The translations under genes were made by a program, and so were the position numbers. From a virus (taxonomy: Duplodnaviria; Heunggongvirae; Uroviricota; Caudoviricetes): a stretch of 64,000 bases of DNA. Shown one piece after another: positions 9,157 to 55,762 of the stretch. Each line of letters starts with the position of its first letter. Position 1 is the first letter of the stretch. Under the pieces are notes generated by a model that was not told the DNA's origin, did no database searches, and was given only the letters and a program-made list of their open reading frames with translations. The stretch lies in IMG/VR virus record IMGVR_UViG_3300029969_000011; one strand, given 5' to 3'.

Positions 9157-9183
9157 ATTTTTGTCCTCCTTAATATTTTAACA

Positions 9184-9363
9184 TCAGCCATCGCAGTGGT
9201 CTGGTGTTATTGTCAAGTTGCCTACGGCGAAGTTTCTCGCCACTCTGAGTGCCCGCTCTGTCTCTTCGAGCCGCTTTTCAAGTTCCCTTATATACGCGAC
9301 TGTTTGAGGCGGGCTGGTTTCAATCATTGTCTTGAGTTCCCAATCTGTTAACTTCTTATACAT
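9184..9363 (-). CDS. small hypothetical protein (59 aa)
   Basis: ATG 9361-9363, MYKKLTDWELK..., below ORF-track length cutoff. Confidence 0.3.
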   Translation of the reverse strand: MYKKLTDWELKTMIETSPPQTVAYIRELEKRLEETERALRVARNFAVGNLTITPDHCDG

Positions 9364-9541
9364 AGATTACATACACTCCATTCCTATGTTTTATTAGGTT
9401 TACTCTGCGTTGAGCATATTCAACCCATTGAGATTTATTTCCAACGGCGATGCCCTCAAAAAGAACATCGTCGTGAAAAGTCAAGCGGATACTTACTTCA
9501 GCGAAAGCTTCAAGAGCCGCTATTAGATTCTCCAGTGTCAT
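9356..9541 (-). CDS. hypothetical protein
   Basis: 61-aa ORF. Confidence 0.35.
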   Translation of the reverse strand: MTLENLIAALEAFAEVSIRLTFHDDVLFEGIAVGNKSQWVEYAQRRVNLIKHRNGVYVIYV

Positions 9542-9740
9542 TGTCGTACTCCTTTACGATTGTGACCATATCCTTATTAACGCCAGTCTTCATCACAAAG
9601 TCAGTAAGGATACCTTCGATAGTATTATCGAGTTCCTTTTCTGATTTAGCTGTAAGATATGTCCATGACTTATGCTCTGTATTGCCGCTGAGTCCTTCAG
9701 CGGAAGGAGCTGTGAATGTTACCTTTACATTAATATCCAT
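9510..9740 (-). CDS. hypothetical protein
   Basis: 76-aa ORF. Confidence 0.4.
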   Translation of the reverse strand: MDINVKVTFTAPSAEGLSGNTEHKSWTYLTAKSEKELDNTIEGILTDFVMKTGVNKDMVTIVKEYDNDTGESNSGS

Positions 9741-9751
9741 ATGAGTCCTCC

Positions 9752-10684
9752 TTATCTGCTCTTAAGCATATCTCTTACGTATGTCATTGTAAGGCTACCG
9801 CAAATCTTACCAAAGTTCTCGCAAGCTGCGACTACCTCTGGCTCCTCCTTACGGCAATCCTCATACATCATCTTAGGAAGTACCTTTGCGATTGCTCCCA
9901 TATCGTGCTCGTCCCAATCAGGTCTAAGCTGACCCTCATCGACAAGCTTCTGAAGACACTTCTCAGTTCTACGAGCAGTTGCAACACTTGCTATGTACTG
10001 TCTCTCAGCCTCTCTCTTCTTGAGCTCCTCTGGGTCTACAGGCTTGTGATGGTCCTGATGAACCTCGGAAAACTTCTCTGCGACAATCTTAAGGTATGAA
10101 GGAGTTCTGCTGTTCTTGTTGTCAAGTCTGTCCTGAGACTTAATAACGACGCCCTCACCACAAGGCTCTGCGCCGAGCATAGACTGACCTACAAGCTGGT
10201 AAACAGTATCCCAACCTCTGAACTCACCTGTGTAGAAGATAGGAACAAAGTAGATTACCTGCTGAGTAAGCTGTACTGCGTTCTCAAGTCCCTTGAAGAT
10301 TGCGTATGTGTCCTCGTGAGGGAGGTACTCCTCTGTCTGAGTATCCCATACGTCGAACATATAGAAGTTCTTGTATCTGTTCTCAGGGTACTTGATTGTA
10401 TGCTTTGTAAGCCACTCGCCGAAGATTACATATCTGCCGTGCTGTGTAAGCATATCAATCTGAGAAACGTTGAGCTGCTGTGCCCAGTTCCAGAAACCGT
10501 TGAGTGTGTTAGCCTCATTAAGCTGGTTCTTACGAGAAAACGCAAGAACAGTATTTGTTGTGGGGTCATATGTGAATGATGCATTTGAGCCGTCAACCTT
10601 CTCGGTAATCGTTACCTGCTCACCGAGTGAAAAGACGGTATCATACTTCTCCTTGAAACGCTCGATATCTACATACTTTTTCAT
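9752..10684 (-). CDS. ATP-dependent RNA ligase (T4 Rnl2-like)
   Basis: 310 aa; N-terminus MKKY...; nucleotidyltransferase motif I TEKVDGSN (KxDG); size and layout like Rnl2. Confidence 0.65.
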   Translation of the reverse strand: MKKYVDIERFKEKYDTVFSLGEQVTITEKVDGSNASFTYDPTTNTVLAFSRKNQLNEANTLNGFWNWAQQLNVSQIDMLTQHGRYVIFGEWLTKHTIKYPENRYKNFYMFDVWDTQTEEYLPHEDTYAIFKGLENAVQLTQQVIYFVPIFYTGEFRGWDTVYQLVGQSMLGAEPCGEGVVIKSQDRLDNKNSRTPSYLKIVAEKFSEVHQDHHKPVDPEELKKREAERQYIASVATARRTEKCLQKLVDEGQLRPDWDEHDMGAIAKVLPKMMYEDCRKEEPEVVAACENFGKICGSLTMTYVRDMLKSR

Positions 10685-15779: not shown

Positions 15780-16346
15780 TAAAACGGTAGTTTTTAAGAA
15801 CACGATTGCCAGTCAATAGCCTTGACTGTTGGCTTAAACTGTAAAGTATAGCGCAATGCTTCCTTAACTGTTTTACTATCATTTGATTGTTCAAAAATAG
15901 TTGCTGATGCAATCGTAATATAAGAACTCGACTTCCTGCTGGGTCCACCAGACTTTTCCTTCCATTACCCTGAAGGGGGATAGGTTCTTATACCTATAAG
16001 CAAGTCGTCATGGTGACTAACCAGTGCCATACCATTTCAGATATGGGAATTTTACTATGACGTTTCCGACGCATCGGATTCGCCGTCACCCTGTCCGAAG
16101 ACCATAGGTGACTTCCTGTTATCTAAATTCATATCAAATCTATTATAGAAGATTGCTGATAGAAGTCGAAACCATTTTTTATTTTAACGAGGGCGCGGCA
16201 CCACGTCCTCATCTTGCTCAGTGAGCTTTCTTTATTTATAGGACGTTGCTCTACGTCCATTCTCTCGTAAGTCAATACGAAGACTATTGCCCTCGTACTG
16301 TTGTATTTATAAGTGGGATTTTACTCCCACCCATACAACATTTTCA
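15780..16346 (-). ncRNA. candidate structured non-coding RNA (possible Y-RNA-like partner of the TROVE protein)
   Basis: About 560 nt with no credible ORF (15730..15948 judged spurious), locally GC-richer with many short inverted repeats; ends in a hairpin + T-run terminator at about 15745-15780; directly downstream of the Ro60-like gene. Confidence 0.3.
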
Positions 16347-17828
16347 TTACTTCCAAGAATATACATCCTTAGAAAGTATCTTGACCATAGCCTCATAAGC
16401 ATTGCACTCGATGAGTTCTCTAAGGTCATTGAATGGACCTACACCAGAACCGCTGCAGTAACTGATGTTATCGTAGATAGTACCGATGTAGTTGTCCTGA
16501 CGTGCCTCAACATTCCAGCTTACGACCTTAGTCTCAGGGAGACCAGCCTCGCGAAGCTTCTTGTTCCACTTACCGACAATGGAGTCAGCAGTGTCTGGAC
16601 GTACGTCGTAGTCGAACTGACCGTCTGATATAACTACAAGAGCCTTTGGAACCTCGCGGGTTCTTACAGCAGTCTTATAGATAAGCTCGAAAGCCTTATC
16701 AAGGTTAGTGTTGTAACCCATGTCAGTTGACATTACCTTTCTAAGACACTCCTCAAGTCCCCAGCTATCCTCGAGGGATATGAAGTGAGGATTGTTAGTG
16801 AATGTCATATAAAGGTTGTGGTATGCACCCTTATTACGCTGAGCGAAGTAAGTTGCAAGACCAACAGAAGTTGCCATAGGCTGACCTAACATGGAGCCAG
16901 ATACATCTGCCATTACGACAACATCGTACTCTCCGCTAACGTAGTTAGGAAGAGCCTTCCACTGAGCTTCGTCTACAGGGTCAAGATGGTAACGAGAGCT
17001 ACCATACATATACTTGTACACGATGTCGTATGGGTAAAGAGTAGAAGCATTTACCTTAGCCTCGCCCTTTTCAAGGGAAGCCTTGTAAGCTGCAAATCTC
17101 TCCTGACAACGCTTGTTGTAAGTCTTGATATATCTGCTCATTGCAACAGATGGAACAGACTGGAAGTCTATCTCATCCCACTTACCAGCAGACATCTTTG
17201 TCTCGACGACGCCGATGTGTGCACGAAGCTTTGCAAGAGTCTTACGATATGTACGCTCGGTAAGACCGAGGTAACGACAAGCTCTACGACCAAGCTTACG
17301 AGTCTCCTGAGAAGAAGTATTGATAGATGGCATCCACTTAGCAAGGATGGAGATAGGCTGGTTCTTAGCCATACCCTCTGCATCAGCACGAAGCTGCTTG
17401 GAGATAAACTCCCATACCTTTGCCTCAATTACTGGATACTTTCCGTTAAGGAAGATGAAAAGGTCATCCCATCTACCTGTATCAACAATGGTCTGAAGAT
17501 TGCGGACAATCTTCTGAGGGTCGATACGACCGAGTTCTGCAAGCAGAATACGACCGATACGTCTCTCACCAAGACCACAGTCTCTGATGTTACGAGCGTA
17601 AAGGATAAGGTTATCTGCAAGAGTAGGGTTCTCCTGTCTTGCTGCCTTCCAATCGCTGATTATAGCGGAAGCATCTCTCTTTCTCATACCACCTATCTTT
17701 GCATAGATGTCAAGAAGAGCGCCGCCGTTTGTTGAACTATATGCGAGTCCACCGTTTTCGGTAAGTGTCTGATTAGCCATTGCCTTAGCTGCGTTTACGA
17801 AATTACTCATTACACATCTCTCCTTCAA
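16347..17828 (-). CDS. Ro60-like protein (TROVE-like helical N-terminal region + vWA domain)
   Basis: 493 aa; C-terminal vWA MIDAS VVVMADVSGSM (DxSxS); N-terminal ~300 aa helical region consistent with a TROVE module. Confidence 0.5.
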   Translation of the reverse strand: MKERCVMSNFVNAAKAMANQTLTENGGLAYSSTNGGALLDIYAKIGGMRKRDASAIISDWKAARQENPTLADNLILYARNIRDCGLGERRIGRILLAELGRIDPQKIVRNLQTIVDTGRWDDLFIFLNGKYPVIEAKVWEFISKQLRADAEGMAKNQPISILAKWMPSINTSSQETRKLGRRACRYLGLTERTYRKTLAKLRAHIGVVETKMSAGKWDEIDFQSVPSVAMSRYIKTYNKRCQERFAAYKASLEKGEAKVNASTLYPYDIVYKYMYGSSRYHLDPVDEAQWKALPNYVSGEYDVVVMADVSGSMLGQPMATSVGLATYFAQRNKGAYHNLYMTFTNNPHFISLEDSWGLEECLRKVMSTDMGYNTNLDKAFELIYKTAVRTREVPKALVVISDGQFDYDVRPDTADSIVGKWNKKLREAGLPETKVVSWNVEARQDNYIGTIYDNISYCSGSGVGPFNDLRELIECNAYEAMVKILSKDVYSWK

Positions 17829-17900
17829 GATAATTATTTTTGTTTGCTGTTTTTATCTTACTTATATATTATACTATAAAATATAATTTTTGTCAAATAT

Positions 17901-18455
17901 TTAATTGCACCTGTCTTCGTAAAAGGTTGCTACCCTACGAAAAATAGAGTCTGGCGCCGCCACAAATTCCTTCTGCCACTCTCTTTTGAAAGTTTTGAAG
18001 TATTCATCGACTTCCATATCGCCGAAAACATAAACTCTTATATTATTTCGTCTTGAGAAAACTTGTCTATGATAGACTATCTCCTTAAAGACTTCTAAGT
18101 CTCGCTTATCCTTAATCGAAATCGTAAGTCCATCAATGCCCCAGAGGTTCTTTTCTCTTTTATAAAGATACTCATATAACTCATAAGCATTGGTATAAAC
18201 ATACACCTTTTTGATATTAGGATAAGTTCCTTTTAAAAAGGAAGCTGTCATACAAGGGTCTGCATATGCAAATGGTTCGCCGCCCGTCAAGAAAATGTTT
18301 TCAGCTTCTTCAAGCTCTTCATTCGTAACGACGGGAATTTCATTTACATTATACTGCTTATTGCAACAAAGCGGGCAATTTCTATCACAACGATTTGTAA
18401 TCATTATGTGAATATTACGCTTCGTTATATCTGTCTTTTCATTTAATTGAGCCAT
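17901..18455 (-). CDS. radical SAM activase, NrdG-like (anaerobic RNR activating protein) or QueE-like
   Basis: 184 aa; CDRNCPLCCN = CxxxCxxC followed by CN as in NrdG (CPGCYN); GGEP motif. Confidence 0.5.
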   Translation of the reverse strand: MAQLNEKTDITKRNIHIMITNRCDRNCPLCCNKQYNVNEIPVVTNEELEEAENIFLTGGEPFAYADPCMTASFLKGTYPNIKKVYVYTNAYELYEYLYKREKNLWGIDGLTISIKDKRDLEVFKEIVYHRQVFSRRNNIRVYVFGDMEVDEYFKTFKREWQKEFVAAPDSIFRRVATFYEDRCN

Positions 18456-18695
18456 TTAAACTCGTCCTTTCCATTTGATTTTCTATAAATATTATACTAT
18501 ATTTTATAAAAAAAGTCAAATTTTTGAGGGAAAAATAAGGGCAACGTCGCAACGCTACCCTTACTCAGCTTTCGCTGATGGTATCAATTTAAACACGATA
18601 GGTTTGTGGCGGACCGCCGCCTGTATAAACGGGGGAGTCGAACCCCACGTAACCAATTTCTGAGGGTTTACATTTGGTTTGCTGAACTATCGTTA

Positions 18696-18787
18696 TGGCG
18701 ACGAAGTGAGGTGTCGAGCCCCATACCGCTCATCACGGTACCAACTGCTTTCAAGGCAGTGCTCAAGGCCGCTTGAGATACTCCGCC
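18696..18787 (-). tRNA. tRNA-Ser (anticodon TGA), class II
   Basis: CCA+G73; T-arm; long variable arm (taccg/cggta); anticodon loop reads tttcaag on plus strand (codon TCA); acceptor pairs with two G-U. Confidence 0.5.
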
Positions 18788-18999
18788 ATTATCAAGATAC
18801 GTTTTTTTCTCGTGCCTCTGCCAATTGGGCTACTCCCCGATATGCTGCCCGAGACAGGAATCGAACCGTTACCCTCCGCCTTCTTCAGGCGGCGTGCACA
18901 CCTATGCACTACAAGGGCAGTCTGGTCGGGGAGGATGGGATTCGAACCCACACTCATCGTGCTCCTAACGCATTAATTGAGTAGCTGACGTATCTTTAT

Positions 19000-19075
19000 T
19001 GGTGCCGAGGGGGAGAGTCGAACTCCCTACGCCAAGCTCTTCAGGCTTGCGCTCTACCAGTTGAGCTACCTCGGC
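19000..19075 (-). tRNA. tRNA-Phe (GAA)
   Basis: Perfect cloverleaf: acceptor gccgagg/cctcggc, T-arm gggag-agtcgaa-ctccc, anticodon loop tcttcag (codon TTC), CCA encoded. Confidence 0.75.
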
Positions 19076-19208
19076 ATTATCAAGACAGTTATACTTATAA
19101 ACTCTACCCGTTGAGCTACGCGACGCGAACGCCACGGTGGGATTCGAACCCACATCCCCCTTTGTGCAAAAAAGAAAAAGTTTTAAGTGTTTTGCTGAAC
19201 TGCCTTAT

Positions 19209-19285
19209 TGGTCGGGGCGGTGGGATTCGAACCCACAGAATCGTGATTTTGAGTCACGCACGTTTACCAGTTACGTCACGCCCCG
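19209..19285 (-). tRNA. tRNA, anticodon CAA (Leu-type anticodon) with class I (short variable arm) body
   Basis: Perfect acceptor cggggcg/cgccccg, T-arm, D-arm acgt-ttaccagtt-acgt; anticodon loop ttttgag (codon TTG); 5-nt variable loop. Confidence 0.55.
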
Positions 19286-19412
19286 ATATAAAATGCAAAA
19301 TATGAAGAGGATACCACACCCTGCAGAGGCCCATATTTATTTATATCCCGCACCATAAGCTTCTTCGCGCTTCAATCCGTCGACTGTCCTCATGGCCATC
19401 CGTGCGGTTTTC

Positions 19413-19488
19413 TGGGTGGAAAGATGAGATTCGAACTCACACCTTCATGGGCCACAACCATGCGCTCTACCATTAAGCTACTCACCAC
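19413..19488 (-). tRNA. tRNA-His (GTG)
   Basis: Anticodon loop gccacaa (codon CAC); extra 5' G-1 and C73 discriminator + CCA characteristic of tRNA-His. Confidence 0.7.
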
Positions 19489-19595
19489 ATCAATTCCGAC
19501 TTTAACCCAAGTCGGCAGGGTTAAATAAAACCAAATCTGCCTCCACACAGTGGAGTTAGCTGTAGACAATAGCACTGAACATAACTATTCCTACT

Positions 19596-19671
19596 TGGTC
19601 TCGGTTATAGGACTCGAACCTATGACTTTCTCCTTGTAAGGGAGACACTCTCGCCGCTGAGTTAAACCGAG
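19596..19671 (-). tRNA. tRNA-Val (TAC)
   Basis: Perfect acceptor ctcggtt/aaccgag, T-arm atagg-actcgaa-cctat, anticodon loop ttgtaag (codon GTA). Confidence 0.7.
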
Positions 19672-19698
19672 ATTATCAAGACTCTCTATACCTTGCGG

Positions 19699-19772
19699 TT
19701 CCGGAAGGGGGATTCGAACCCCCATATGTACGATTTTAGGTCGTATGACTTAGCCACTTTGTCTATTCTGGA
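19699..19772 (-). tRNA. tRNA-like, anticodon region TAA with irregular loop (C33?)
   Basis: T-arm ggggg-attcgaa-ccccc, acceptor tccggaa/ttctgga; anticodon stem tacga/tcgta with loop ttttagg. Confidence 0.35.
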
Positions 19773-19920
19773 AAGGAATATTGCTGAAGAGTCTTTATTT
19801 GGTTCGGGTATGCTTATCGGAGTCAAGTACTCGCAGTTCCTCTTTCGAGGTATTTTCTTCGGAGTAAAGACCTTAAGGTTCGCGTAACCTCTCGTGCCCT
19901 AACCCATATCCGAAACCCGA

Positions 19921-19997
19921 TGGTGCCGTTAGAGGGACTCGAACCCACACTAACCAGTTCCTAAGACTGGCGCCTCTGCCAATTGGGCTATAACGGC
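19921..19997 (-). tRNA. tRNA, anticodon TAG (Leu-type anticodon) with class I, Gln-like body
   Basis: Perfect acceptor gccgtta/taacggc + CCA, anticodon stem ccagt/actgg loop tcctaag (codon CTA), 5-nt variable loop, 3-bp D-stem. Confidence 0.5.
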
Positions 19998-20061
19998 ATT
20001 GTTAAACAGTTCGAGTTACGGTCAAACTGAAGGTAAGCACCGATTAAGCAGCCAGATACTC

Positions 20062-20292
20062 CTATTCAGAATAATCAAGCTTTTCAATTCTTTTCATATC
20101 GGAATATGTAACCTGCTTCCAACCACTCTTAGGGTGGTTAAAGGCACACATCCAGCAGGAACAATGAATTTTACCTTTGGCTAACTTTCCGTCGCAATCA
20201 CAAAACCAATGATGAGTTTCATCAATGATATGTCTTTTGCGAGCTATGTGTTGTCTTCTCTGATAACGATAGTATGCTCTATCTCTTTCCAT
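20062..20292 (-). CDS. Arg-rich zinc-finger protein inside the tRNA array
   Basis: 76 aa; basic N-terminus, HxxxC...CxC...CxxC cluster. Confidence 0.4.
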   Translation of the reverse strand: MERDRAYYRYQRRQHIARKRHIIDETHHWFCDCDGKLAKGKIHCSCWMCAFNHPKSGWKQVTYSDMKRIEKLDYSE

Positions 20293-20432
20293 TGTGCCGC
20301 CCTCCGAAAAATTATAATAACGAATATAGGCAACCCACTACTTACTTTCCTTACCAGCGTAAATTAAGCACCTTCGCTACGTATTGCTACTACCTCAGTA
20401 TTTAATTTACTATGCCCTTCCCTCGATATTCG

Positions 20433-20975
20433 TTACTTAGTAATTCTGTTTGCGATACCAGAAGCAGCGTAGCTGTCTGGCTTGATAGCAACCTCGAAGC
20501 CGCAAGTCTTAATCCAAGAGGTAATCTCAGTAATAAGCTGATTTGTCTTACCTGCGTGACCAATGTCAGCGTGGACAGCGAAAGTAAATCTTCCGTCATT
20601 AGACATTTGCTCAAGGTCAATATCATAGTCGATAAGAGCATAAGCAAGAGCATCTACGAAACCTGTTGCGTTCTCAATAGAACGAGAAGTCTCTTCCTGT
20701 ATCTTAGTCTTAAGAACTCTTATCTTTGGTATATCTTGCTTGCGATAGAAGAAAATGCCGCCATCACCGATACGGTGAACAGCAATTACTTCCACCATTC
20801 TTGTGCACTTGTGGTTCTGGCTATCTGTACCCACAGTTATTTCGTATGAGGCGTTAGGTGCCTTTGCGATGTAGTCGGCTACAATAGAGCCTATCTGTGA
20901 ATAACGAACCTTCTCACCATTACCACGAGTAAATATCTTCTCGGTAATCACGGTTAATCTCTCCTTTATATTCAA
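20433..20975 (-). CDS. YkuK/DUF458-like RNase H-fold protein
   Basis: 180 aa; VGTDSQ and AVHADIGH motifs resemble the GTDSQ/HADSN signatures of the YkuK family. Confidence 0.4.
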   Translation of the reverse strand: MNIKERLTVITEKIFTRGNGEKVRYSQIGSIVADYIAKAPNASYEITVGTDSQNHKCTRMVEVIAVHRIGDGGIFFYRKQDIPKIRVLKTKIQEETSRSIENATGFVDALAYALIDYDIDLEQMSNDGRFTFAVHADIGHAGKTNQLITEITSWIKTCGFEVAIKPDSYAASGIANRITK

Positions 20976-21107
20976 ATATTCAAGACAGTTATGTTAGCTA
21001 CCTTTTGATTAAAATTCAAATGCTTTTAAAGAATTGCTGGACTGTCTTAGTGGTGATAATACGTGCCGCGGCACCACAGACCGCTATATGTGGTCGCACG
21101 TATTCTC

Positions 21108-21194
21108 TGGTCGGCTCGGTGGGACTCGAACCCACACGCCCTTGCGGGCACCAGCTCCTTAGGCTGGCGCGTCTGCCAATTCCGCCACGAGCCG
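21108..21194 (-). tRNA. tRNA-Leu (anticodon AAG), class II
   Basis: 87 nt; perfect acceptor cggctcg/cgagccg + CCA; long variable arm gccc-ttg-cgggc; anticodon loop tccttag (codon CTT). Confidence 0.55.
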
Positions 21195-21262
21195 ATTTAT
21201 CAAGACTCATCTTGTGTTTTTATATGCCCAAAAAACTTTCAGAGTTGCTGCTGAGTCTTATC

Positions 21263-21339
21263 TGGTCGGAGATGCGGGACTCGAACCCACGGCCTCTCGC
21301 TCCCAAGGCGAGCGCTCTACCAAACTGAGCTAATCCCCG
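21263..21339 (-). tRNA. tRNA-Pro (TGG)
   Basis: Anticodon stem ctcgc/gcgag, loop tcccaag (codon CCA); D-arm gctc-taccaaact-gagc; CCA encoded. Confidence 0.65.
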
Positions 21340-21409
21340 ATTAATTGGCGGCTTCAGGGACGCTACAAGATAACCAACCGCCAGAGTTATCACGCACTTA
21401 ATGTCCCAA

Positions 21410-21486
21410 TGGTCGGCGAGATGGGATTCGAACCCACACTGAATGGATTTTAAGTCCATTGCCTCTGCCTGTTGCGCTACTCGCCG
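21410..21486 (-). tRNA. tRNA, anticodon TAA (Leu-type anticodon) with class I body
   Basis: Perfect acceptor cggcgag/ctcgccg + CCA; anticodon stem atgga/tccat loop ttttaag (codon TTA); 5-nt variable loop. Confidence 0.5.
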
Positions 21487-21606
21487 ATAAGCCTATTAAA
21501 TAGGCTACAAGATATAACCCCTTTTACCGCGGGGCAGTCTCCCCAATATAATTGGTTGGGGAGATAGGAATTGAACCTACAAAAGTGAGTTGCTGATATA
21601 TCTTAG

Positions 21607-21683
21607 TGGTCACGCCAGCGAGGCTCGAACTCGCATTTTAGCCTTGAAAGAGCTACTTCCTACACCTGTTAGAAGATGGCGCG
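21607..21683 (-). tRNA. tRNA-Glu (TTC)
   Basis: T-arm gcgag-gctcgaa-ctcgc, anticodon loop ttgaaag (codon GAA), CCA encoded. Confidence 0.6.
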
Positions 21684-21835
21684 ATTCATCAAGATGTGCT
21701 TTTACCTCTCATGAGGATTTGAACCTTACCGTCCCCTTTTTGGGGCTGTGCTACCAGATTACACCATAACGCCGAGAGGATTTAAAATGGCGGCGTTAAA
21801 AACTTTAAAGAAAAAGTTGCTGACACATCTTTATT

Positions 21836-21909
21836 TGGTTGCGCAGACAGGACTCGAACCTATATCAACGGATAATGACTCCGTTATGCTACCTTTGCAC
21901 TACCGCGCG
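21836..21909 (-). tRNA. initiator tRNA-fMet (CAT)
   Basis: Anticodon loop taatgac (anticodon CAT); 5' CGCGCGG / 3' CTGCGCAACCA with C1·A72 mismatch, as in bacterial initiator tRNA. Confidence 0.6.
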
Positions 21910-22760
21910 TTCTCTTTATTTTCTATAATTATTATAGCATAAATTATAAAAAATGTCAAATTTTTGATTTCTAAGTCATTTCGTAAGCACTCTCACCGCG
22001 TGAAGGTAGACTTAATTGAGAGTATTTCTTCAACAATCTTGGGTGCCGCCACATCTCCTGCACACAGGAGACAGGGTACTCGAACCCCTCCATCGCCAGT
22101 TGCTGAAAGGAATTTCAACCTAATCTCATTAGTTATAAAGCCACTGAGCTGTAGCTATGCGAATAATTTGCCGCAATCAACGGGCGACTATTCTAATCGC
22201 CGTCATAACCAACACAAGTTATGAACCATTGTAATGTCGTCAGGTTCCCACACTTACGCAGTAAACGCGCCGCTTAACCACTTGGTTTAGGTATGTTCAT
22301 AACCAAGAAATTTTCCCTTTTACATCGTCAGCAGTAGATGTCGTAATTTTATCGGTACTTCCCCGAATGGACATTGCGTGCCTATCGTACTCACGGTAAT
22401 GTACGTAACCGCTGCCGTGCCAGCCAATACACGGATTTATACTGCCATCACACAGTCGGGCAGGTCTGTGATGGGTCTCTGCCCAATTTGGTTTTTGTGG
22501 TTTTAAACAGTCCAATGAGTAAACCTCAACTCAACTGTAGAGAATATTTGGTGGTTCGCTCTCTCTCAGCGAAGGTGTAAAGGGAGTTTAAACCACTTCC
22601 TCGTGGGGTTTTAACGTCTTTTCCTTGACAAGTCTCGCCGCAACCAGTACCATTTAAGGTACGCCAATCACTACGGGTTGCACATCCTTACTTTACCTGC
22701 CCAACAGGTCGGCGGTTGGACCCGCCAGTGTCCCTTTTATTCTCTTTAAGTAATTGGCAA

Positions 22761-22835
22761 TGGTGTGGGATAGGAGAATCGAACTCCCACCGCCTGTTTG
22801 GAAGACAGGAATACTGACCGTTATACGAATCCCAC
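22761..22835 (-). tRNA. tRNA-Gly (TCC)
   Basis: Perfect acceptor gtgggat/atcccac + CCA; anticodon stem cctgt/acagg, loop ttggaag (codon GGA). Confidence 0.65.
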
Positions 22836-23045
22836 ATTAGTTCTTATTTTTAAGTATAATTTATTATAACATATTCTAAGAAAAAAGTCAAATTTTTAAT
22901 AGTGATTGTCTTTGTAGGGGTCTGTCTTCTTCTTATCATGGGTTGCGGCGATGATGTCTGGCATAACCTCTATGAGCTTCCAAAGAAGTACGGTTACGCA
23001 AACAACTATTAGGTACTGCATCAGACAGACCTCCTTTCAAGACAT

Positions 23046-23120
23046 TGGTTTCTCCGCTTGGATTCGAACCAAGGAATGGCAGTTTTAGAGACTGCTGTCT
23101 TAAGCCTCTTGACGACGGAG
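23046..23120 (-). tRNA. suppressor tRNA, anticodon CTA (reads TAG); tRNA-Gln-like body
   Basis: Perfect acceptor ttctccg/cggagaa + CCA; T-arm cttgg-attcgaa-ccaag; anticodon stem gcagt/actgc, loop tttagag = C-U-CUA-A-A; 3-bp D-stem, variable loop CATTC as in E. coli tRNA-Gln. Confidence 0.7.
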
Positions 23121-23125
23121 AATTA

Positions 23126-23201
23126 TGGTTGCCGCTCTGGGAATCGAACCCAGTAAGACGGAGTTAGAGTCCGTTGTCCTCGCCAACTAAACGAAGCGGC
23201 A
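23126..23201 (-). tRNA. second suppressor tRNA, anticodon CTA (reads TAG)
   Basis: Perfect acceptor tgccgct/agcggca + CCA; T-arm ctggg-aatcgaa-cccag; anticodon stem acgga/tccgt, loop gttagag (anticodon CUA); 3-bp D-stem. Confidence 0.65.
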
Positions 23202-23342
23202 AAATTCTCCAAGACGCCTTTACATTTACCTTTTAAACATTTTAAGTGTTCTATTGTAAGAAATGATTGCAGGATGCGTCTTTCATTCTTATAAAATAAT
23301 TATAACATATTTTATAAAAATTGTCAAATTTTTGAGTGCTTA

Positions 23343-23606
23343 TTAGTCTACAGCAGTTGTAGTAGTTGTCTCTGTTGTAGTCTCTTCTGCCTCAGTTTCT
23401 GTGGTAGTAGTTGTTTCTTCGGTAGCCTCAGTTGTCTCCTCTGCTACTGTTGTAGCTTCAGTTGTTTCAGCTTCTGTTGTTTCAACTTCTGTTGTAACTA
23501 CTGTTGTGGTTTCACTGTTGCTTCCGCTATCCTTTGATGTATCGCAAGAAACAAAAGTTACAGCCATAGCGCCTGCCATAAGACAAGCTAAAATAGCCTT
23601 CTTCAT
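23343..23606 (-). CDS. small secreted lipoprotein, Thr/Glu-rich
   Basis: 87 aa; signal peptide + TFVSC lipobox-like; (ETT)n low-complexity tail; located inside tRNA array. Confidence 0.45.
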   Translation of the reverse strand: MKKAILACLMAGAMAVTFVSCDTSKDSGSNSETTTVVTTEVETTEAETTEATTVAEETTEATEETTTTTETEAEETTTETTTTTAVD

Positions 23607-23949
23607 TGTGTTTCACCTCTTTGCTTTTTAAATAAGAACCCTTGCTTGTATATCGAAACCTCGTATTATATCCACAGTCACATCGTGATTTACTCCCACA
23701 CAAGAGGGCTACCATGGAGAAGGGGCACGCCCCGAGATGGGCGGCAATAATCATAGAACGCTATACGAAAAGCATAACGTACTAAGGAACTCTTTCCACA
23801 CGTGGTGGATGAGCTATCGTATTTCTACGACCCCGCACAGCGGGTAGAAGTCATAATGACCTCTTAACAGTAATTTTGATTGAGCCGCGTTTCCTCTTTT
23901 AAGTCTGACTAACTGCGGTAAAAAATCCAGACTTCAAAATTACTTTTAA

Positions 23950-24043
23950 GAAATCATTATGGCGCGGTCGGGGAGACTCGAACTCCCACACCGATTGCTC
24001 GATTACTCATAGTTTAGCAAACTACTGCCTTACCAAATTAGGC
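23950..24043 (-). tRNA. tRNA-Ser (GCT), class II
   Basis: CCA + G73; perfect acceptor gcggtcg/cgaccgc; long variable region; anticodon loop ttagcaa (codon AGC). Confidence 0.5.
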
Positions 24044-24188
24044 TTACGACCGCATTATCAAGATACGTTTTTTCGATATACGTTGTTCTACCAGTTGAAC
24101 TACTCCGCCATATTGGCGACGGAGGCAGGACTTGAACCTACACCTACGGCGTGATAGGCAATCTATTGCTTGCTGACGTATCTTAGTT

Positions 24189-24266
24189 TGGTGTGCCTGA
24201 TGGGACTCGAACCCATGACCCCCTGATTAAAAGTCAGGTGTTCTATGCCAACTGAACTACAGGCAC
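24189..24266 (-). tRNA. tRNA-Lys (TTT)
   Basis: Perfect cloverleaf; acceptor gtgcctg/caggcac; anticodon loop ttaaaag (codon AAA). Confidence 0.75.
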
Positions 24267-24366
24267 ATTAACATCCGCTGAGCATCTTATTGGAACGCTT
24301 TCACCATGCGAGACCTCTATTGTTTATTTGCTGGCAGAATTTGAACCATTAACCATAGCGAATATT

Positions 24367-24442
24367 TGGTGGGACGCCTGAGATTCGAACTCAGATAAGC
24401 TCGGTTATGAGCCGAGTGCACTAACCATTGTACTAACGTCCC
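24367..24442 (-). tRNA. elongator tRNA-Met (CAT) or tRNA-Ile2 (CAT, lysidine)
   Basis: T-arm ctgag-attcgaa-ctcag; anticodon stem ctcgg/ccgag, loop ttatgag (anticodon CAT). Confidence 0.6.
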
Positions 24443-24490
24443 ATTAAAGAAAGGAAAGGGGCATACTTTCAAGATGGCTATGCCAGACCA

Positions 24491-24564
24491 CTAAGTTATT
24501 GGCTTCGGCAAAGGGAGTCGAACCCCTATCAACAGAGCCAAAATCTGTTGTCCTACCATTAGAC
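24491..24564 (-). tRNA. tRNA-Gln (TTG)
   Basis: G73 + CCA; anticodon stem acaga/tctgt, loop gccaaaa (codon CAA); 3-bp D-stem GTC/GAC. Confidence 0.65.
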
Positions 24565-24601
24565 GATACCGAAATCTATGGAGTCATAAAGACTCCAAAT
24601 A

Positions 24602-24961
24602 TTACTTTTTGTTAGTTTTGTCTTTGCCTTTATCTTTATCTTTATCTTTATCCTTGTCTTTTCCTTCGGTATCTTCTTTGGTTTCTTCTTTTGCCATTGT
24701 AGAAGTCCAGCCAACCATCTGTTCAGCTAACCAGCCTGGGAGTCCAAAATATACTTCTCCCAAAACTTCATTTATTTCTGTGAGGTAAACCCAGCCTTCG
24801 CCAGGGATGTTGGCTCTACATTTTGCTTTACCCTTACCTTTGTCAACATATTCTGACTTCAGATATTCGATAAGCTCATCTACTGTCATACCATAAGTAG
24901 CTTCTTTTCTTACGTCTTTTTCAGACTTTTTAGTTACTTTGGTTATCTTTTCGACTTTCAT
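24602..24961 (-). CDS. hypothetical protein with C-terminal (DK)n repeat
   Basis: 119 aa; the DNA microsatellite ctttat(c) encodes DKDKDKDKDK. Confidence 0.4.
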   Translation of the reverse strand: MKVEKITKVTKKSEKDVRKEATYGMTVDELIEYLKSEYVDKGKGKAKCRANIPGEGWVYLTEINEVLGEVYFGLPGWLAEQMVGWTSTMAKEETKEDTEGKDKDKDKDKDKGKDKTNKK

Positions 24962-25667: not shown

Positions 25668-25970
25668 TTAATTGGTCTTTTCAGCGAAAGTCCAAGCCTT
25701 TCTTCCGTCAGCAAGAATATAAATTCCATTTATCTGGAACTTCTCAGGCTTCTCATAAACAATCTCAACCTTGTGCTTAACGCCGTCAAGTCTGTCCTGC
25801 TCAAGGCTTGTTCTGAACTCCTTACCGCTCATCTTAAAAATTTGATTGTCGGTAACTTTAAGTGATGTTACCCCATTCTCATCTTCAACTTTTTCGAGCA
25901 TTGTTACATTCATAAGAACCTTAGACTTTACTATATCCCAAGGCTGGAATCCTCTCTGTTTTAAATCCAT
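25668..25970 (-). CDS. hypothetical protein
   Basis: 100-aa ORF. Confidence 0.4.
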   Translation of the reverse strand: MDLKQRGFQPWDIVKSKVLMNVTMLEKVEDENGVTSLKVTDNQIFKMSGKEFRTSLEQDRLDGVKHKVEIVYEKPEKFQINGIYILADGRKAWTFAEKTN

Positions 25971-26407
25971 TACTTTTCCTCCTTAAAATCGTTCCTTAGT
26001 TTCATCAAGGTGTAACCAAGCTGATTACGACCTACGCCGCGGCAACTGGGACAAGTGCATATACCCCAGTATCTATCGTGCCAAGTTGTAGCTTCAACAA
26101 GAGTCTCATCACCAGTTTCAAGGAGAGCTTCCTTTAACTCTGGGTTTTGAGTAAACTTCTCATAAAGAACATCGTACATAACTTGGTCTTTAACCTGTTC
26201 CCAGTCAGGACGAAGGTTTGCACTTCTACCCATAGACTTAGCAAAAGAAGGTGGTCTGTCCGCATACTTCTCTGCATTTTCAGGCTCTTTCTGTGATTGA
26301 AATGCCGCCTCGGAGTTAGTAAAATGAATACCCTTATAAGTAAAAGAGGACGCATAAAAGTTACTTAAGAAACCATATTTGCCTATATTACCTGTAAAAT
26401 GTATCAT
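25970..26407 (-). CDS. NADAR-domain protein (YbiA/DUF1768-like)
   Basis: 145 aa; GKYGFLSNFY...EAAFQSQK...RPDWEQVKDQVMYDVLYEKFTQNPELKEALLETGDETLVEA...WG...GRNQLGYTLMKLR matches the NADAR consensus. Confidence 0.6.
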   Translation of the reverse strand: MIHFTGNIGKYGFLSNFYASSFTYKGIHFTNSEAAFQSQKEPENAEKYADRPPSFAKSMGRSANLRPDWEQVKDQVMYDVLYEKFTQNPELKEALLETGDETLVEATTWHDRYWGICTCPSCRGVGRNQLGYTLMKLRNDFKEEK

Positions 26408-45358: not shown

Positions 45359-45435
45359 TTATTATGACCTCCTATCATAGTGTGCCGCCCCTCAGATTTT
45401 TAGAAGGGCGGCGCATTTAATTTATATTATTCTCT

Positions 45436-55717: not shown

Positions 55718-55762
55718 CTGCTGACCGCTTGAAGGAAGATTACTTGAACTTGAAAGCTCTCC

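What the first reader, a model, noticed from the sequence alone, without database searches (positions are those of the whole stretch)
18600..24570. Large tRNA array with conserved flanks, an initiator tRNA, tRNA half-fragments and internal non-tRNA tracts
About 25 minus-strand tRNA and tRNA-like genes, including an initiator-type tRNA-fMet (C1·A72, CGCGCGG acceptor) at 21836-21909.

Most are preceded on the coding strand by TCTTGATAAT (plus strand attatcaaga). Most are followed by a conserved trailer (plus strand tatcttt/tatcttag before the CCA), suggesting a dedicated processing signal.

Several elements are only 3' halves (T-arm + acceptor + CCA) at about 18924-18951, 19128-19158, 21546-21578 and 24106-24140. 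5' halves (D-arm + acceptor) sit at about 18820-18839 and 24075-24105. Each 5' half lies adjacent to a complementary 3' half but in swapped order.

The array also holds three protein genes (zinc finger 20062-20292, YkuK-like 20433-20975, lipoprotein 23343-23606). It has two GC-richer non-coding tracts, 22140-22760 and 23640-23940, with no tRNA signature; these may be other structured RNAs.
Basis: seen in the sequence. Interest (0 to 1): 0.6.

Follow-up and report, generated by a model that had tools for sequence, protein, structure and literature searches.

The report
Y-RNA-like elements inside phage tRNA array
The odd "half tRNAs" and conserved flanks in this phage tRNA cluster are a dozen copies of a small structured RNA, several with a tRNA-shaped module, that most likely partner the Ro60-like RNA-binding protein encoded next door: a known kind of system, here in an unusually multiplied and previously undescribed form.

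Summary
There are 19 ARAGORN tRNAs plus one Sec-shaped tRNA-Ser(UGA). Both flank motifs are enriched (10 vs 0.74 and 9 vs 1.27 expected).

The interpretation changes. "Trailer" and "leader" are the two strands of one 8-bp RNA helix (AAGACNNN/NNNGUCUU). A conserved (U/A)CAGCAA bulge follows the 5' strand. A covariance model finds 246 copies in the window plus 80 related phage loci, all on the gene strand. Pairing is 97.9% against 37-49% in slid controls.

The helix closes modular RNAs lying between tRNAs. Four carry a T arm, closed acceptor hairpin and D arm, the circularly permuted tRNA mimic of bacterial YrlA Y RNAs; others are minimal.

The gene just downstream (16347-17810) is DUF2828+vWA, and its model matches Ro60 full length. 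A minimal motif copy sits in its own 5' UTR, and copies cluster around the gene. A generalised motif flanks homologues in cultured Bacillus, Staphylococcus, Listeria, Mycobacterium and Felix-O1-like phages.

Best reading: Y-RNA-like partners and cis-sites of a phage Ro-like protein, probably released by tRNA processing. No binding was shown. This is a new variant of a known kind. The two "GC-richer tracts" are conserved unknown structured RNAs.

The parts
18595..24573 (-). tRNA / Y-RNA-like array. It is transcribed from repeated sigma-70-type promoters and ends at an intrinsic terminator.
24059..24184 (-). Element Y1. Helix AAGAUACG (24184-24177) pairs with CGUAUCUU (24067-24060); bulge UCAGCAA. 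Inside: T arm, acceptor hairpin (CUCCGUC-GCCAAUAU-GGCGGAG), D arm. It starts 4 nt after tRNA-Lys CCA and ends 5 nt before tRNA-Ser.
   Evidence: (YrlA model 33.4 bits, full length)
23210..23282 (-). Element Y10, minimal form with bulge variant CCUGCAA. It is the 5' leader of the transcript carrying the two suppressor tRNAs.
   Evidence: (R1 32.7 bits; not in the seed alignment)
21690..21831 (-). Element Y2. Helix AAGAUGUG/CACAUCUU. The inner module is tRNA-like in normal order, with a 5-nt 'anticodon' loop.
21508..21604 (-). Element Y3. Helix AAGAUAUA/UAUAUCUU. Permuted tRNA-like module; acceptor CUCCCCA-ACCAAUUAUAU-UGGGGAG.
21201..21259 (-). Element Y4, minimal form. Helix AAGACUCA/UGAGUCUU; inner hairpin with a UUUGGGC loop.
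   Evidence: (27 bits)
20981..21048 (-). Element Y5, minimal form, directly upstream of the ribosome-binding site of the RNaseH-like gene.
   Evidence: 33.9 bits
19677..19795 (-). Element Y6. Helix AAGACUCU/AGAGUCUU. It encloses ARAGORN's 'tRNA-Leu(UAA)' 19697-19772, which ends CGCA rather than CCA.
19081..19206 (-). Element Y7. Helix AAGGCAGU/ACUGUCUU with a G-U pair. Permuted tRNA-like module whose acceptor is closed by a UUCG loop (no CCA).
   Evidence: (YrlA 31 bits)
18793..18996 (-). Element Y8. Helix AAGAUACG/CGUAUCUU. Permuted tRNA-like module with a second tRNA-like unit (ARAGORN 'tRNA-Leu(aag)' 18844-18919, Rfam only 33.7 bits, non-canonical anticodon loop) nested in its acceptor loop.
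18595..18693 (-). Element Y9, degenerate. Helix ACGAUAG/CUAUCGU, bulge UUCAGCAA, T-arm-like hairpin only.
17826..17859 (-). Element Y11, minimal copy (AAGAUAA-AAACAGCAAAC..-UUAUCUU-G) at the 5' end of the Ro-like mRNA. Its 3' strand abuts the Shine-Dalgarno sequence AAGGAG (17825-17820); ATG at 17810.
   Evidence: same position in 34 of 80 loci; 23.5 bits
16110..16167 (-). Candidate variant element downstream of the Ro-like gene: GACUUCU-AUCAGCAAUC..-GGAAGUC.
   Evidence: (partial, 19.1 bits); weak (fold z-score -0.85)
15803..15915 (-). Candidate variant element: CGAUUGC-AUCAGCAAC..-GCAAUCG, followed by a terminator.
   Evidence: (z-score -3.9)
16347..17810 (-). Ro60-like protein gene (Pfam DUF2828 + DUF7788 + vWA; MIDAS residues D308, S310, S312, T374, D402 invariant).
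20433..20975 (-). RNaseH-like (PF04308, YkuK family) gene inside the array. It is conserved inside the arrays of 12 of 80 related loci.
23046..23201 (-). Two tandem amber-suppressor tRNAs (anticodon CUA).
21836..21909 (-). Initiator-type tRNA-Met (C1 opposite A72), first gene after its own promoter.
18700..18787 (-). Probable tRNA-Ser(UGA) of unusual shape (8-bp acceptor, 6-bp D stem, 4-bp T stem), missed by ARAGORN.
   Evidence: ARAGORN calls tRNA-Ser(tga) at the same place in L001-L003
21975..22760 (-).
23637..23745 (-).
18531..18562 (-). Intrinsic terminator closing the array (AAGGGUAGCGUUGCGACGUUGCCCUUAUUUUU).
17868..17900 (-). Promoter of the Ro-like gene (TTGACA..TATAAT). Near-identical promoters have their -35 boxes at 23327, 22892, 21959 and 18519.

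Best explanation
The array interleaves true tRNA genes with at least 11 copies of a modular Y-RNA-like element.

Shown:
- Each element is closed by an 8-bp helix. Its 5' strand (AAGACNNN) begins 2-4 nt after the CCA of the upstream tRNA. Its 3' strand (NNNGUCUU, then G) ends about 5 nt before the next tRNA.
- The 5' strand is followed by a conserved single-stranded (U/A)CAGCAA bulge.
- The helix encloses one of three kinds of interior: a permuted tRNA-like domain of the YrlA type (T arm, closed acceptor hairpin, D arm), a tRNA-like unit in normal order, or only a small hairpin.
- The element clusters around, and lies on the same strand as, a gene whose product has the Ro60 fold.

Inferred:
- The helix plus bulge is the binding site of that Ro60-like (DUF2828-vWA) protein.
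- The elements are cut out of the polycistronic transcripts by ordinary tRNA processing. RNase P cleavage at the next tRNA would set their 3' end. An endonuclease or 3' trimming of the upstream tRNA would set their 5' end.
- The resulting RNPs work as in bacterial Ro/Y RNA systems. The variable module would tether the Ro-like ring to tRNA-recognising or RNA-degrading/repair enzymes.
- The minimal copy abutting the Shine-Dalgarno sequence of the Ro-like mRNA would let the protein repress its own translation.

Neighbouring RNA ligase, Band-7, NADAR and RNaseH-like genes point to an RNA repair, quality-control or counter-defence role during infection.
For: Helix is real RNA structure:
- Every window copy pairs through different sequences.
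- Unbiased anchor test: 167 of 1006 loose 5' anchors on the gene strand have a complementary 3' anchor, against 4 of 601 on the other strand and 11.6 +/- 3 with random partners.
- Model R1 gives 246 hits at E<=1 in 1.57 Mb, all on the gene strand.
- On 122 distinct hits, 97.9% of cells pair against 37-49% for slid partners. There are 195 double-change cells, and all four Watson-Crick pair types occur at helix positions 6-8. G-U pairs would be mismatches on the opposite strand.
- MFE folding recovers the closing helix and the cloverleaf-like interior.

YrlA-like topology:
- Rfam YrlA aligns full length over Y1, and partially over Y7.
- 22 permuted domains were found across loci.

Ro-like protein:
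- AlphaFold2 model pLDDT 90.7.
- Best PDB matches are full-length Ro60/TROVE structures: 9kop, 1yvr, 2i91, 1yvp, 2nvo. E-values 6.5e-8 to 4.5e-5, TM up to 0.61.
- MIDAS residues are invariant.
- GenBank homologues are annotated 'Ro-like RNA binding protein'.

Link between motif and gene:
- A copy lies in the gene's own 5' UTR in the window and in 34 of 80 loci.
- Element density peaks in the kilobase upstream of the gene and falls off faster than tRNA density: 29 elements per 42 tRNAs at -1 kb, against 2 per 52 at -10 to -8 kb.
- In the 64-kb window all credible copies lie between 15.8 and 24.2 kb.
- The motif or its generalised form flanks the homologous gene in Tsamsa, Staphylococcus phage Alsa_2 (no annotated tRNAs in the fetched region), Listeria LP-083-2, Mycobacterium phage Moostard (one copy coincides with a YrlA hit) and a Felixounavirus.

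Processing: 37 of 135 unique elements start within 8 nt of a tRNA 3' end (mode 2-4). 43 end 3-9 nt before a tRNA 5' end (mode 5).

Context and literature:
- RNA ligase PF09414 and Band_7 lie 6-9 kb downstream.
- Rsr/YrlA are known next to RNA ligases and Band-7 (10.1101/312249).
- Phage Ro60 binds upstream-encoded Y-like RNAs made of a stem plus a bulge motif (PMC12135203).
Against: - No binding, expression or end-mapping data exist; every functional step is by analogy.
- The protein matches neither Pfam TROVE nor any Ro60 sequence in the PDB, even as a profile. The link is by fold only, at 13-16% identity.
- The conserved bulge (CAGCAA) is not the GNCGAA(N)G motif of bacterial YrlA.
- YrlA scores (31-38 bits) are far below the Rfam threshold of 69.
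- About two thirds of elements lack any tRNA-like module.
- Copies also precede another gene (RNaseH-like) and a tRNA operon, which equally fits a general leader or processing element.
- Strict scans find the motif in 59 of 81 sequences, not all.
- R1 was seeded from elements chosen by complementarity. Pairing in its hits is therefore partly built in, though strand bias and pair-type diversity are not.
Confidence: 0.65

Rival explanations
1. The helix+bulge is a Ro-independent punctuation element. It would be a recognition or blocking structure for an endonuclease (host RNase Y/E/III, or the array-encoded RNaseH-like protein), or a 5'-terminal stabiliser hairpin. It would separate tRNAs and mRNAs in these operons. 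The Ro-like gene would merely share the operon.
For: Precise spacing to tRNA ends. Copies lie at the very 5' end of promoter-proximal transcripts (Y10, Y11) and before the RNaseH-like gene (Y5). An RNaseH-like gene is conserved inside 12 of 80 arrays. Most copies are minimal hairpins.
Against: Density tracks the Ro-like gene more than the tRNAs. The motif is present next to the Ro-like gene where no tRNA is nearby (Staphylococcus phage) and in loci without the RNaseH-like gene (68 of 80). It is absent from the many other operons of the window that use the same promoters. The 8-bp helix is too short for RNase III.
Confidence: 0.2
2. The swapped halves are genuine split or circularly permuted tRNA genes. 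Their products would be joined or assembled into functional decoding tRNAs.
For: 3' half precedes a complementary 5' half. In Y1, Y3 and Y8 the acceptor 3' strand is followed by N-CCA and a short AU-rich 'leader'. M. smegmatis YrlA is cleaved by RNase P and receives CCA (10.1101/312249).
Against: No anticodon stem-loop can be formed from the termini; the position is taken by the conserved helix+bulge. 17 of 22 permuted domains have closed acceptor loops without CCA. There is no bulge-helix-bulge junction. Bacteria lack the splicing endonuclease. The same closing helix encloses non-tRNA interiors.
Confidence: 0.03
3. The element is a small self-cleaving ribozyme that trims tRNA 3' trailers, like the HDV-like theta ribozymes of gut phages.
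For: Same niche: it lies immediately 3' of phage tRNAs, in an amber-recoded gut-type phage with suppressor tRNAs (PMC10879173).
Against: No HDV, hammerhead, twister, pistol or hatchet hit at E<=10. The only conserved parts are an 8-bp helix and a 6-7-nt bulge. The interior varies from 18 to more than 200 nt with unrelated content. No nested pseudoknot and no 3' partner region: the next tRNA follows 5 nt later.
Confidence: 0.03
4. The fragments are decaying tRNA pseudogenes left by tandem duplication and deletion, and the flanks are repeated spacer DNA.
For: Some acceptor loops retain CCA plus spacer, as expected after duplication of a tRNA gene. Arrays of this kind turn over quickly.
Against: Compensatory changes keep the closing helix paired across 122 distinct copies. 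Strand specificity is absolute. The motif is conserved between phages whose Ro-like proteins are less than 40% identical.
Confidence: 0.02

Closest known systems
Bacterial and phage YrlA Y RNAs with Rsr/Ro60 (Chen et al. 2014, PMC4201824; Wang et al. 2018, bioRxiv 10.1101/312249; Rfam RF02553)
   Same: Encoded on the same strand within a few kb of a Ro60-type gene. Modular: a terminal stem with a conserved bulge motif on the 5' side, plus a T arm, closed acceptor hairpin and D arm resembling a circularly permuted tRNA. Several copies can occur per locus. RNA ligase and Band-7 neighbours.
   Different: Scores 31-38 bits against a threshold of 69. The stem motif is AAGAC..(N)CAGCAA..GUCUUG rather than GNCGAA(N)G. 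There are 11 or more copies instead of 1-4. Copies are interleaved with, and spaced to the nucleotide from, true tRNAs. Most copies across loci lack the tRNA-like domain; some carry a tRNA-like unit in normal order or nested. One copy sits in the protein's own 5' UTR. The protein is DUF2828, not Pfam TROVE.
Thermus phage phiLo Ro60 with Yrl1/Yrl2 (PMC12135203; PDB 9KOP, 9L5Y)
   Same: Phage-encoded Ro60-fold protein (best structural match here) with Y-like RNAs just upstream of the gene. The RNAs are a 5'-3' stem flanking a bulge that carries a short conserved motif.
   Different: Two RNAs, with a CGAA motif, and not described as embedded in a tRNA array. Binding and a PNPase complex were shown there; nothing was shown here.
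Escherichia phage Bas63 gp130 (PhageMaP preprint, PMC11482910)
   Same: Ro60-like protein by structure, encoded directly beside a run of tRNA genes. The authors guessed that some of those 'tRNAs' are Y RNAs. Felixounavirus homologues of the window protein carry the generalised motif in that run.
   Different: That work reports a phenotype (counter to the ppl defence system) but identifies no RNA. This work identifies candidate RNAs but has no phenotype.
Theta (minimal HDV-like) ribozymes next to phage tRNAs (PMC10879173)
   Same: Small structured RNA immediately 3' of tRNAs in amber-recoded gut phages. Possible role in tRNA 3'-end formation.
   Different: No double-pseudoknot fold, no catalytic-core conservation, variable interior, no Rfam ribozyme hit.
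Band-7-associated tRNA and RtcB-centred RNA repair operons (Burroughs & Aravind 2016, as cited in 10.1101/312249)
   Same: A tRNA-like RNA together with Ro-type or Band-7 proteins and an RNA ligase. The window has Band_7 and RNA ligase 6-9 kb from the Ro-like gene. The Listeria phage homologue lies 1.3 kb from RtcB.
   Different: The ligase here is PF09414, not RtcB. The association in this window is by proximity only.

Membership tests
YrlA (Rfam RF02553) | Reaches the family's gathering score (69 bits) | tested here: not met
   33.4 bits (24056-24168) and 31 bits (19101-19157) in the window. 31-38 bits in L001, L062 and Mycobacterium phage Moostard.
YrlA (Rfam RF02553) | tRNA-like domain in the order T arm, closed acceptor stem-loop, D arm | tested here: met
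   Y1, Y3, Y7 and Y8 in the window; 22 cases across loci. Not met by the minimal elements Y4, Y5, Y10 and Y11.
YrlA (Rfam RF02553) | Conserved GNCGAA(N)G motif near the 5' end (putative Rsr site; PMC4201824) | tested here: not met
   The conserved 5'-side motif is (U/A)CAGCAA. CAGCAA is found in 96 of 135 unique elements. The position is analogous but the sequence differs.
YrlA (Rfam RF02553) | Encoded within about 4 kb of, and on the same strand as, a Ro60 orthologue | tested here: met
   Elements lie 0-6.4 kb upstream and 0.2-0.5 kb downstream of 16347-17810, all on the minus strand. The same holds in 80 loci. The gene is Ro-like by fold only.
YrlA (Rfam RF02553) | Bound by Rsr/Ro60; carries tRNA modifications | not testable with these tools
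   Needs RIP/EMSA and modification mapping.
Ro60 / TROVE + vWA proteins | Sequence match to Pfam TROVE (PF05731) or to solved Ro60 proteins | tested here: not met
   Pfam gives DUF2828, DUF7788 and weak vWA only. phmmer and a 32-sequence profile against PDB sequences find no Ro60.
Ro60 / TROVE + vWA proteins | HEAT-repeat ring plus C-terminal vWA fold | tested here: met
   The model (pLDDT 90.7) aligns over about 520-550 columns to 9kop, 1yvr, 2i91, 1yvp and 2nvo. E-values 6.5e-8 to 4.5e-5, TM 0.33-0.61. vWA-only hits reach TMq of 0.26 or less.
Ro60 / TROVE + vWA proteins | Intact MIDAS motif in the vWA domain | tested here: met
   D308, S310, S312, T374 and D402 are invariant in 32 homologues.
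Theta / HDV-like ribozymes | Nested double pseudoknot (P1, P1.1, P2, P3) with catalytic C in J4/2 | tested here: not met
   No HDV-family hit at E<=10. The single conserved helix is followed 5 nt later by the next tRNA, and the interior is not conserved.
Theta / HDV-like ribozymes | Self-cleavage at the 5' end of P1 | not testable with these tools
   Needs in vitro transcription and a cleavage assay.
Split / circularly permuted tRNA genes | The pieces together restore a full cloverleaf including the anticodon arm, joined at a bulge-helix-bulge junction | tested here: not met
   No anticodon loop. The termini form an 8-bp helix with a one-sided 6-7-nt bulge. The acceptor is closed without CCA in 17 of 22 cases.
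Bacterial initiator tRNA (for 21836-21909) | C1 opposite A72 mismatch | tested here: met
   5' CGCGCGG / 3' CUGCGCA-A-CCA.
Bacterial initiator tRNA (for 21836-21909) | Three consecutive G-C pairs at the base of the anticodon stem | tested here: not met
   The stem ACGGA/UCCGU gives G29-C41, G30-C40 and A31-U39.

The most novel reading that the evidence does not exclude
The Ro-like protein and its many helix+bulge RNAs form a phage-specific machine acting on the tRNA pool. Either the motif recruits the ring in cis to the nascent array, to drive or police maturation and repair of phage tRNAs. Or the tRNA-shaped modules act as decoys or tethers for host tRNA-targeting defence enzymes; some have CCA-bearing acceptor loops that RNase P could open into two-piece tRNA mimics. 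That would make this widespread family a general anti-defence RNP, consistent with Bas63 gp130 countering the ppl system.
Probability: 0.2. Interest if true: 0.8.

Novelty: new variant of a known kind. Interest (0 to 1): 0.6.

Why it matters
DUF2828-type Ro-like proteins occur in at least 707 GenBank phage records. These include Felix O1-like, Twort-like, P100-like, Tsamsa-like, cluster C/L mycobacteriophages and Lak phages. One homologue has a counter-defence phenotype, yet no RNA partner has been defined outside the few YrlA predictions.

A compact, covarying signature (helix GAC-NNN, CAGCAA bulge, NNN-GUC) marks candidate partners in all the lineages sampled. It gives a direct handle for EMSA, CLIP and mutagenesis in cultivable phages.

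It also explains a recurring annotation problem in phage tRNA arrays. The 'pseudo', 'undetermined' and half tRNAs there are often modules of these RNAs. ARAGORN here miscalls at least two such modules as tRNA-Leu.

It suggests that tRNA processing enzymes are used to manufacture non-tRNA regulatory RNAs in bulk.

Finally, it places Ro/Y-type RNPs in amber-recoded gut phages next to the suppressor tRNAs that switch their genetic code.

Tried and rejected
- Rfam at gathering and at E<=10 over 18400-24700: only tRNAs, a sub-threshold tRNA-Sec and sub-threshold YrlA. No RNase P, tmRNA, 6S, group I/II, GOLLD, ROOL or ribozyme family for either tract or for the spacers.
- blastn of the array against GenBank phages: only single-tRNA matches, no syntenic relative.
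- phmmer and profile search of the Ro-like protein against PDB sequences: nothing relevant. Only the fold search connected it to Ro60.
- Helix extension: positions 9-12 and the bases outside AAG/CUU do not pair above the shuffled expectation, so the helix is 8 bp.
- CCA in the acceptor loop as a general feature: rejected, 5 of 22.
- R1 hits on the plus strand at 5116-5195 (20.8 bits, E 0.08) and at 50093-50152 (11.7 bits): treated as chance. They are isolated, and no plus-strand-of-window hit appears among the 246 in the pooled search.
- R1 under-scores long elements (Y1, Y2, Y3 and Y8 are missed at E<=10) because of insert penalties.
- Pattern scan of IMG/VR for the large RNA's invariant block found only 3 contigs, too few for a firm structure.
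- Supplementary tables of Chen et al. 2014 and two Wolin reviews could not be read. Whether the 22 phages listed there carry DUF2828-type proteins is inferred from GenBank 'Ro-like' annotations only.
- The metagenome, genome-contig and representative-protein searches were not used.

Full report
**What is there.**
- The window is part of a phage genome. All genes between about 1 and 57 kb lie on the minus strand.
- ARAGORN and Rfam each report 19 minus-strand tRNAs between 18844 and 24573. They include two tandem tRNAs with anticodon CUA (23046-23201) and a tRNA-Met with C1 opposite A72 (21836-21909).
- A sensitive Rfam scan adds 18700-18787 (tRNA-Sec model, 43 bits, threshold 47). It folds as a class II cloverleaf with an 8-bp acceptor stem, a 6-bp D stem and anticodon UGA. 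ARAGORN calls tRNA-Ser(tga) at the corresponding place in three related phages.
- The array is cut into several transcription units by near-identical TTGAC(A/T)-N17-TATAAT promoters. It ends at an intrinsic terminator at 18562-18531.

**The flanks are one helix.**
The 'leader' is x'x'x'x'-UCUUGAUAAU, then the tRNA.
- In every spacer the variable letters of trailer and leader are complementary: AAGAUACG/CGUAUCUU, AAGAUGUG/CACAUCUU, AAGAUAUA/UAUAUCUU, AAGACUCA/UGAGUCUU, AAGACAGU/ACUGUCUU, AAGACUCU/AGAGUCUU, AAGGCAGU/ACUGUCUU.
- Both half-motifs are enriched in the window: 10 matches against 0.74 expected, and 9 against 1.27; no shuffle of 100 reached either count.
- MFE folding of each spacer on its own recovers the closing helix.

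**The 'half tRNAs'.**
- Inside the helix, Y1 (24184-24059), Y3 (21604-21508), Y7 (19206-19081) and Y8 (18996-18793) contain, in this order: a T arm, an acceptor 3' strand, a loop, the complementary acceptor 5' strand and a D arm.
- The Rfam YrlA (Y RNA-like) model aligns end to end over Y1 (33.4 bits) and over the core of Y7 (31 bits). Both are well below its threshold of 69.
- YrlA RNAs are bacterial Y RNAs whose effector module is a tRNA mimic with a closed acceptor stem and no anticodon loop. They have been described as resembling circularly permuted tRNAs (PMC4201824; bioRxiv 10.1101/312249).
- Other elements differ:
  - Y2 (21831-21690) and Y6 (19795-19677) hold a tRNA-like unit in normal order. 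ARAGORN's 'tRNA-Leu(UAA)' 19697-19772 is the interior of Y6 and ends CGCA, not CCA.
  - Y8 has a second, poor tRNA-like unit (ARAGORN 'tRNA-Leu(aag)', 33.7 bits) nested in its acceptor loop.
  - Y4, Y5, Y10 and Y11 are minimal, with only a small hairpin or loop.

**The neighbouring gene.**
- The ORF 16347-17810, 0.8 kb downstream of the array on the same strand, matches Pfam DUF2828, DUF7788 and weakly vWA. It does not match TROVE.
- It has no sequence-level match to Ro60 in the PDB, even as a 32-sequence profile.
- Its AlphaFold2 model (pLDDT 90.7) finds full-length Ro60/TROVE structures as its eight best PDB matches. These are phage phiLo Ro60 (9kop), Xenopus Ro (1yvr, 2i91, 1yvp), Deinococcus Rsr (2nvo) and human Ro60. 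E-values run from 6.5e-8 to 1.5e-4, with TM up to 0.61 over about 540 columns. vWA-only proteins follow at much lower coverage.
- The MIDAS residues are invariant among homologues.
- tblastn finds homologues in 707 GenBank phage records. Several are annotated 'Ro-like RNA binding protein' or 'RNA-binding protein'.

**Comparative test of the RNA motif.**
- Eighty IMG/VR loci encoding homologues (36-81% identity) were fetched with 10-kb flanks.
- All 673 ARAGORN tRNAs in them lie on the gene strand, mostly upstream of the gene.
- A scan used only the invariant letters as anchors (AAG..CWGC, CTTG). It found a fully complementary partner for 167 of 1006 loose 5' anchors on the gene strand. The opposite strand gave 4 of 601, and randomly drawn 3' anchors gave 11.6 +/- 3.0.
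- Covariance model R1 was built from 36 short elements. It gave 246 hits at E<=1 in 1.57 Mb, every one on the gene strand.
- On the 122 distinct best hits, 97.9% of cells pair, against 37-49% when partners are slid by 1-3 columns. There are 195 cells with changes on both sides. Helix positions 6-8 show all four Watson-Crick pair types, plus G-U pairs that would be mismatches on the other strand.
- Positions beyond the eighth pair do not pair above expectation.
- The conserved core is therefore (U/A)AAGAC-NNN-(N)(N)CAGCAA ... (A)(A)-N'N'N'-GUCUUG.

**Link between motif and gene.**
- A minimal copy (17859-17826) lies between the Ro-like gene's own promoter and its Shine-Dalgarno sequence. The 3' strand of the helix abuts AAGGAG. 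The same arrangement is found in 34 of 80 loci.
- In 48 loci with full flanks, element density peaks in the kilobase upstream of the gene (29 elements, 42 tRNAs) and just downstream of it. It falls to 2 elements per 52 tRNAs at -10 to -8 kb.
- In the 64-kb window all credible copies lie between 15.8 and 24.2 kb, although the same promoters drive many other operons.
- The motif is also found in cultured phages next to the homologous gene:
  - Bacillus phage Tsamsa: four R1 hits in and after its tRNA array, the best 85 nt before the gene.
  - Staphylococcus phage Alsa_2: hits directly after the gene, with no annotated tRNAs in the fetched region.
  - Listeria phage LP-083-2: a variant of the motif.
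- A generalised search (7-bp helix, then N(1-3)CAGC(A/T)A) finds tandem copies beside the gene in four further cases:
  - Mycobacterium phage Moostard: three copies, GGAC-NNN...ACAGCAA...NNN-GUCC; one coincides with a 37.9-bit YrlA hit.
  - Felixounavirus UAB_Phi87: four copies in the tRNA run after the gene.
  - Listeria phage: three copies.
  - Staphylococcus phage: copies directly after the gene.
- The shared core is GAC-NNN / CAGCAA / NNN-GUC.

**How it probably works.**
- Shown: a strand-specific, covarying RNA helix with a conserved one-sided bulge. It has modular interiors, including YrlA-type tRNA mimics. It is spaced to the nucleotide from tRNA ends: 37 of 135 unique elements begin 0-8 nt (mode 2-4) after a tRNA 3' end, and 43 end 3-9 nt (mode 5) before a tRNA 5' end. 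It clusters around a Ro60-fold gene.
- Inferred: the helix+bulge is that protein's binding site. RNase P cleavage at the downstream tRNA and 3' maturation of the upstream tRNA release the elements. The RNPs act like Ro/Y RNA complexes elsewhere, where Y RNA tethers Ro60 to PNPase or other effectors (PMC4201824; PMC12135203). The 5' UTR copy gives translational autoregulation.
- Context fits an RNA repair or conflict role. An RNA ligase (PF09414, 9752-10684), a Band_7/flotillin protein (7579-9156), NADAR (25970-26407) and an RNaseH-like protein (20433-20975) are nearby. The Listeria phage homologue lies next to RtcB and a second RNA ligase. Rsr/YrlA are known neighbours of RNA ligases and Band-7 (10.1101/312249).
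- A Felix-O1-like phage homologue, Bas63 gp130, counters the ppl defence system. Its authors guessed that some adjacent 'tRNAs' are Y RNAs (PMC11482910).

**Rivals.**
- *Ro-independent processing or stabiliser element.* This fits the positions at tRNA boundaries and at transcript 5' ends. It fits poorly with the clustering on the gene, with the motif's presence beside the gene in a phage region without annotated tRNAs, and with its absence from other operons. Estimated at about 0.2.
- *True split or permuted tRNAs.* Contradicted by the missing anticodon arm and by closed acceptor loops without CCA in 17 of 22 cases.
- *Ribozyme of the theta/HDV type.* Contradicted by topology, by the unconserved interior and by the lack of any Rfam ribozyme hit (PMC10879173).
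- *Pseudogene debris.* Contradicted by the covariation.

**The two tracts.**
- Tract 1 (22760-21975) is conserved in L001, L003, L002 and one further IMG/VR contig. It has long invariant blocks, for example ACAUCUACUGCUGACGAUGUAAA and GUGGUUAAGCGGCGCGUUUACUGCG..AGUGUGGGAACC.
- Its indels are not multiples of three, it has no conserved ORF, and a terminal helix shows compensatory changes. It looks like a large structured RNA of unknown family. With five sequences the structure is not established.
- Tract 2 contains a 110-nt element (23745-23637). It is 80-95% identical in phages whose Ro-like proteins are only about 50% identical, and it has three covarying pairs. The whole tract folds with z = -4.4. 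Neither tract matches any Rfam family.

**Novelty.**
- Phage Ro60 homologues with adjacent Y-like or YrlA RNAs are known (PMC4201824, PMC12135203, PMC7824862).
- I found the following in none of the papers I could search:
  - the specific helix+CAGCAA signature;
  - its multiplication to 11 or more copies interleaved with tRNAs;
  - the minimal and nested forms;
  - the copy in the protein's own leader;
  - its presence across DUF2828-type loci of many phage lineages.
- A full-text search for DUF2828 returned no paper on phages or Ro60. I rate it a new variant of a known kind, with interest 0.6.

Noticed in passing
window 40707-56419, minus strand: Six frames of 380-1183 codons are open only if TAG is read as sense (3-18 in-frame TAGs each). 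The 7-27 kb region uses the standard code. This is an amber-recoded phage, matching the two tRNA(CUA) genes at 23046-23201, which have their own promoter and a Y-like leader.
   Followed up: partly
window 21975-22760, minus strand: Conserved non-coding region of about 750 nt between tRNA-Gly and the next promoter. It has long invariant blocks, non-triplet indels and some compensatory pairs in 4 related contigs. No Rfam family matches. Possibly a new large phage RNA.
   Followed up: partly
window 23637-23745, minus strand: A 110-nt element (GCCGCCCAUCUCGGGGCGUGCCCCUUCUCC...ACAAGCAAGGGUU) conserved at 80-95% in at least 10 related loci. It usually lies just upstream of a tRNA-Leu(UAG) or a Y-like element; here it lies upstream of the small T/E-rich lipoprotein-like ORF. 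Unknown family.
   Followed up: partly
window 18700-18787, minus strand: tRNA with an 8-bp acceptor stem, a 6-bp D stem with a 4-nt loop, a long variable arm and a 4-bp T stem (selenocysteine/allo-tRNA-like shape), but anticodon UGA. ARAGORN misses it.
   Followed up: partly
window 19209-19285, 19921-19997, 21410-21486, minus strand: Three well-scoring tRNAs with leucine anticodons (CAA, UAG, UAA) are only 77 nt long, with short variable arms. Bacterial tRNA-Leu is normally class II. Only 21108-21194 (AAG, 87 nt) has the long arm.
   Followed up: no
window 7579-10684 and 25970-26407, minus strand: RNA ligase (PF09414), Band_7/flotillin and NADAR genes flank the tRNA/Ro-like region, a combination typical of RNA repair or conflict islands.
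   Followed up: partly
window 19797-19920, minus strand: A 124-nt spacer begins UCGGGU and ends ACCCGA-ACCA, i.e. an acceptor-like stem plus CCA without a recognisable T loop. It is followed at the usual distance by element Y6, and the same ending is seen in L001 and L003. It could be another tRNA-like RNA.
   Followed up: no
window 24267-24366, minus strand: The spacer between tRNA-Met and tRNA-Lys is closed by a different long-range helix (AAUAUUCGCU/AGCGGAUGUU). It contains a T-loop-like GGUUCAAAUUC and a CCAGCAAAU. It may be a diverged element not captured by the model.
   Followed up: no
L062 21228-21479: A related phage contig carries a tmRNA-like match (43 bits, cut by the locus end) about 10 kb downstream of its Ro-like gene.
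   Followed up: no
window 17901-18455, minus strand: Small radical-SAM-like protein (CX3CX2C; weak PF04055 hit) between the array terminator and the Ro-like gene. It is conserved only in the closest relative, L001.
   Followed up: no
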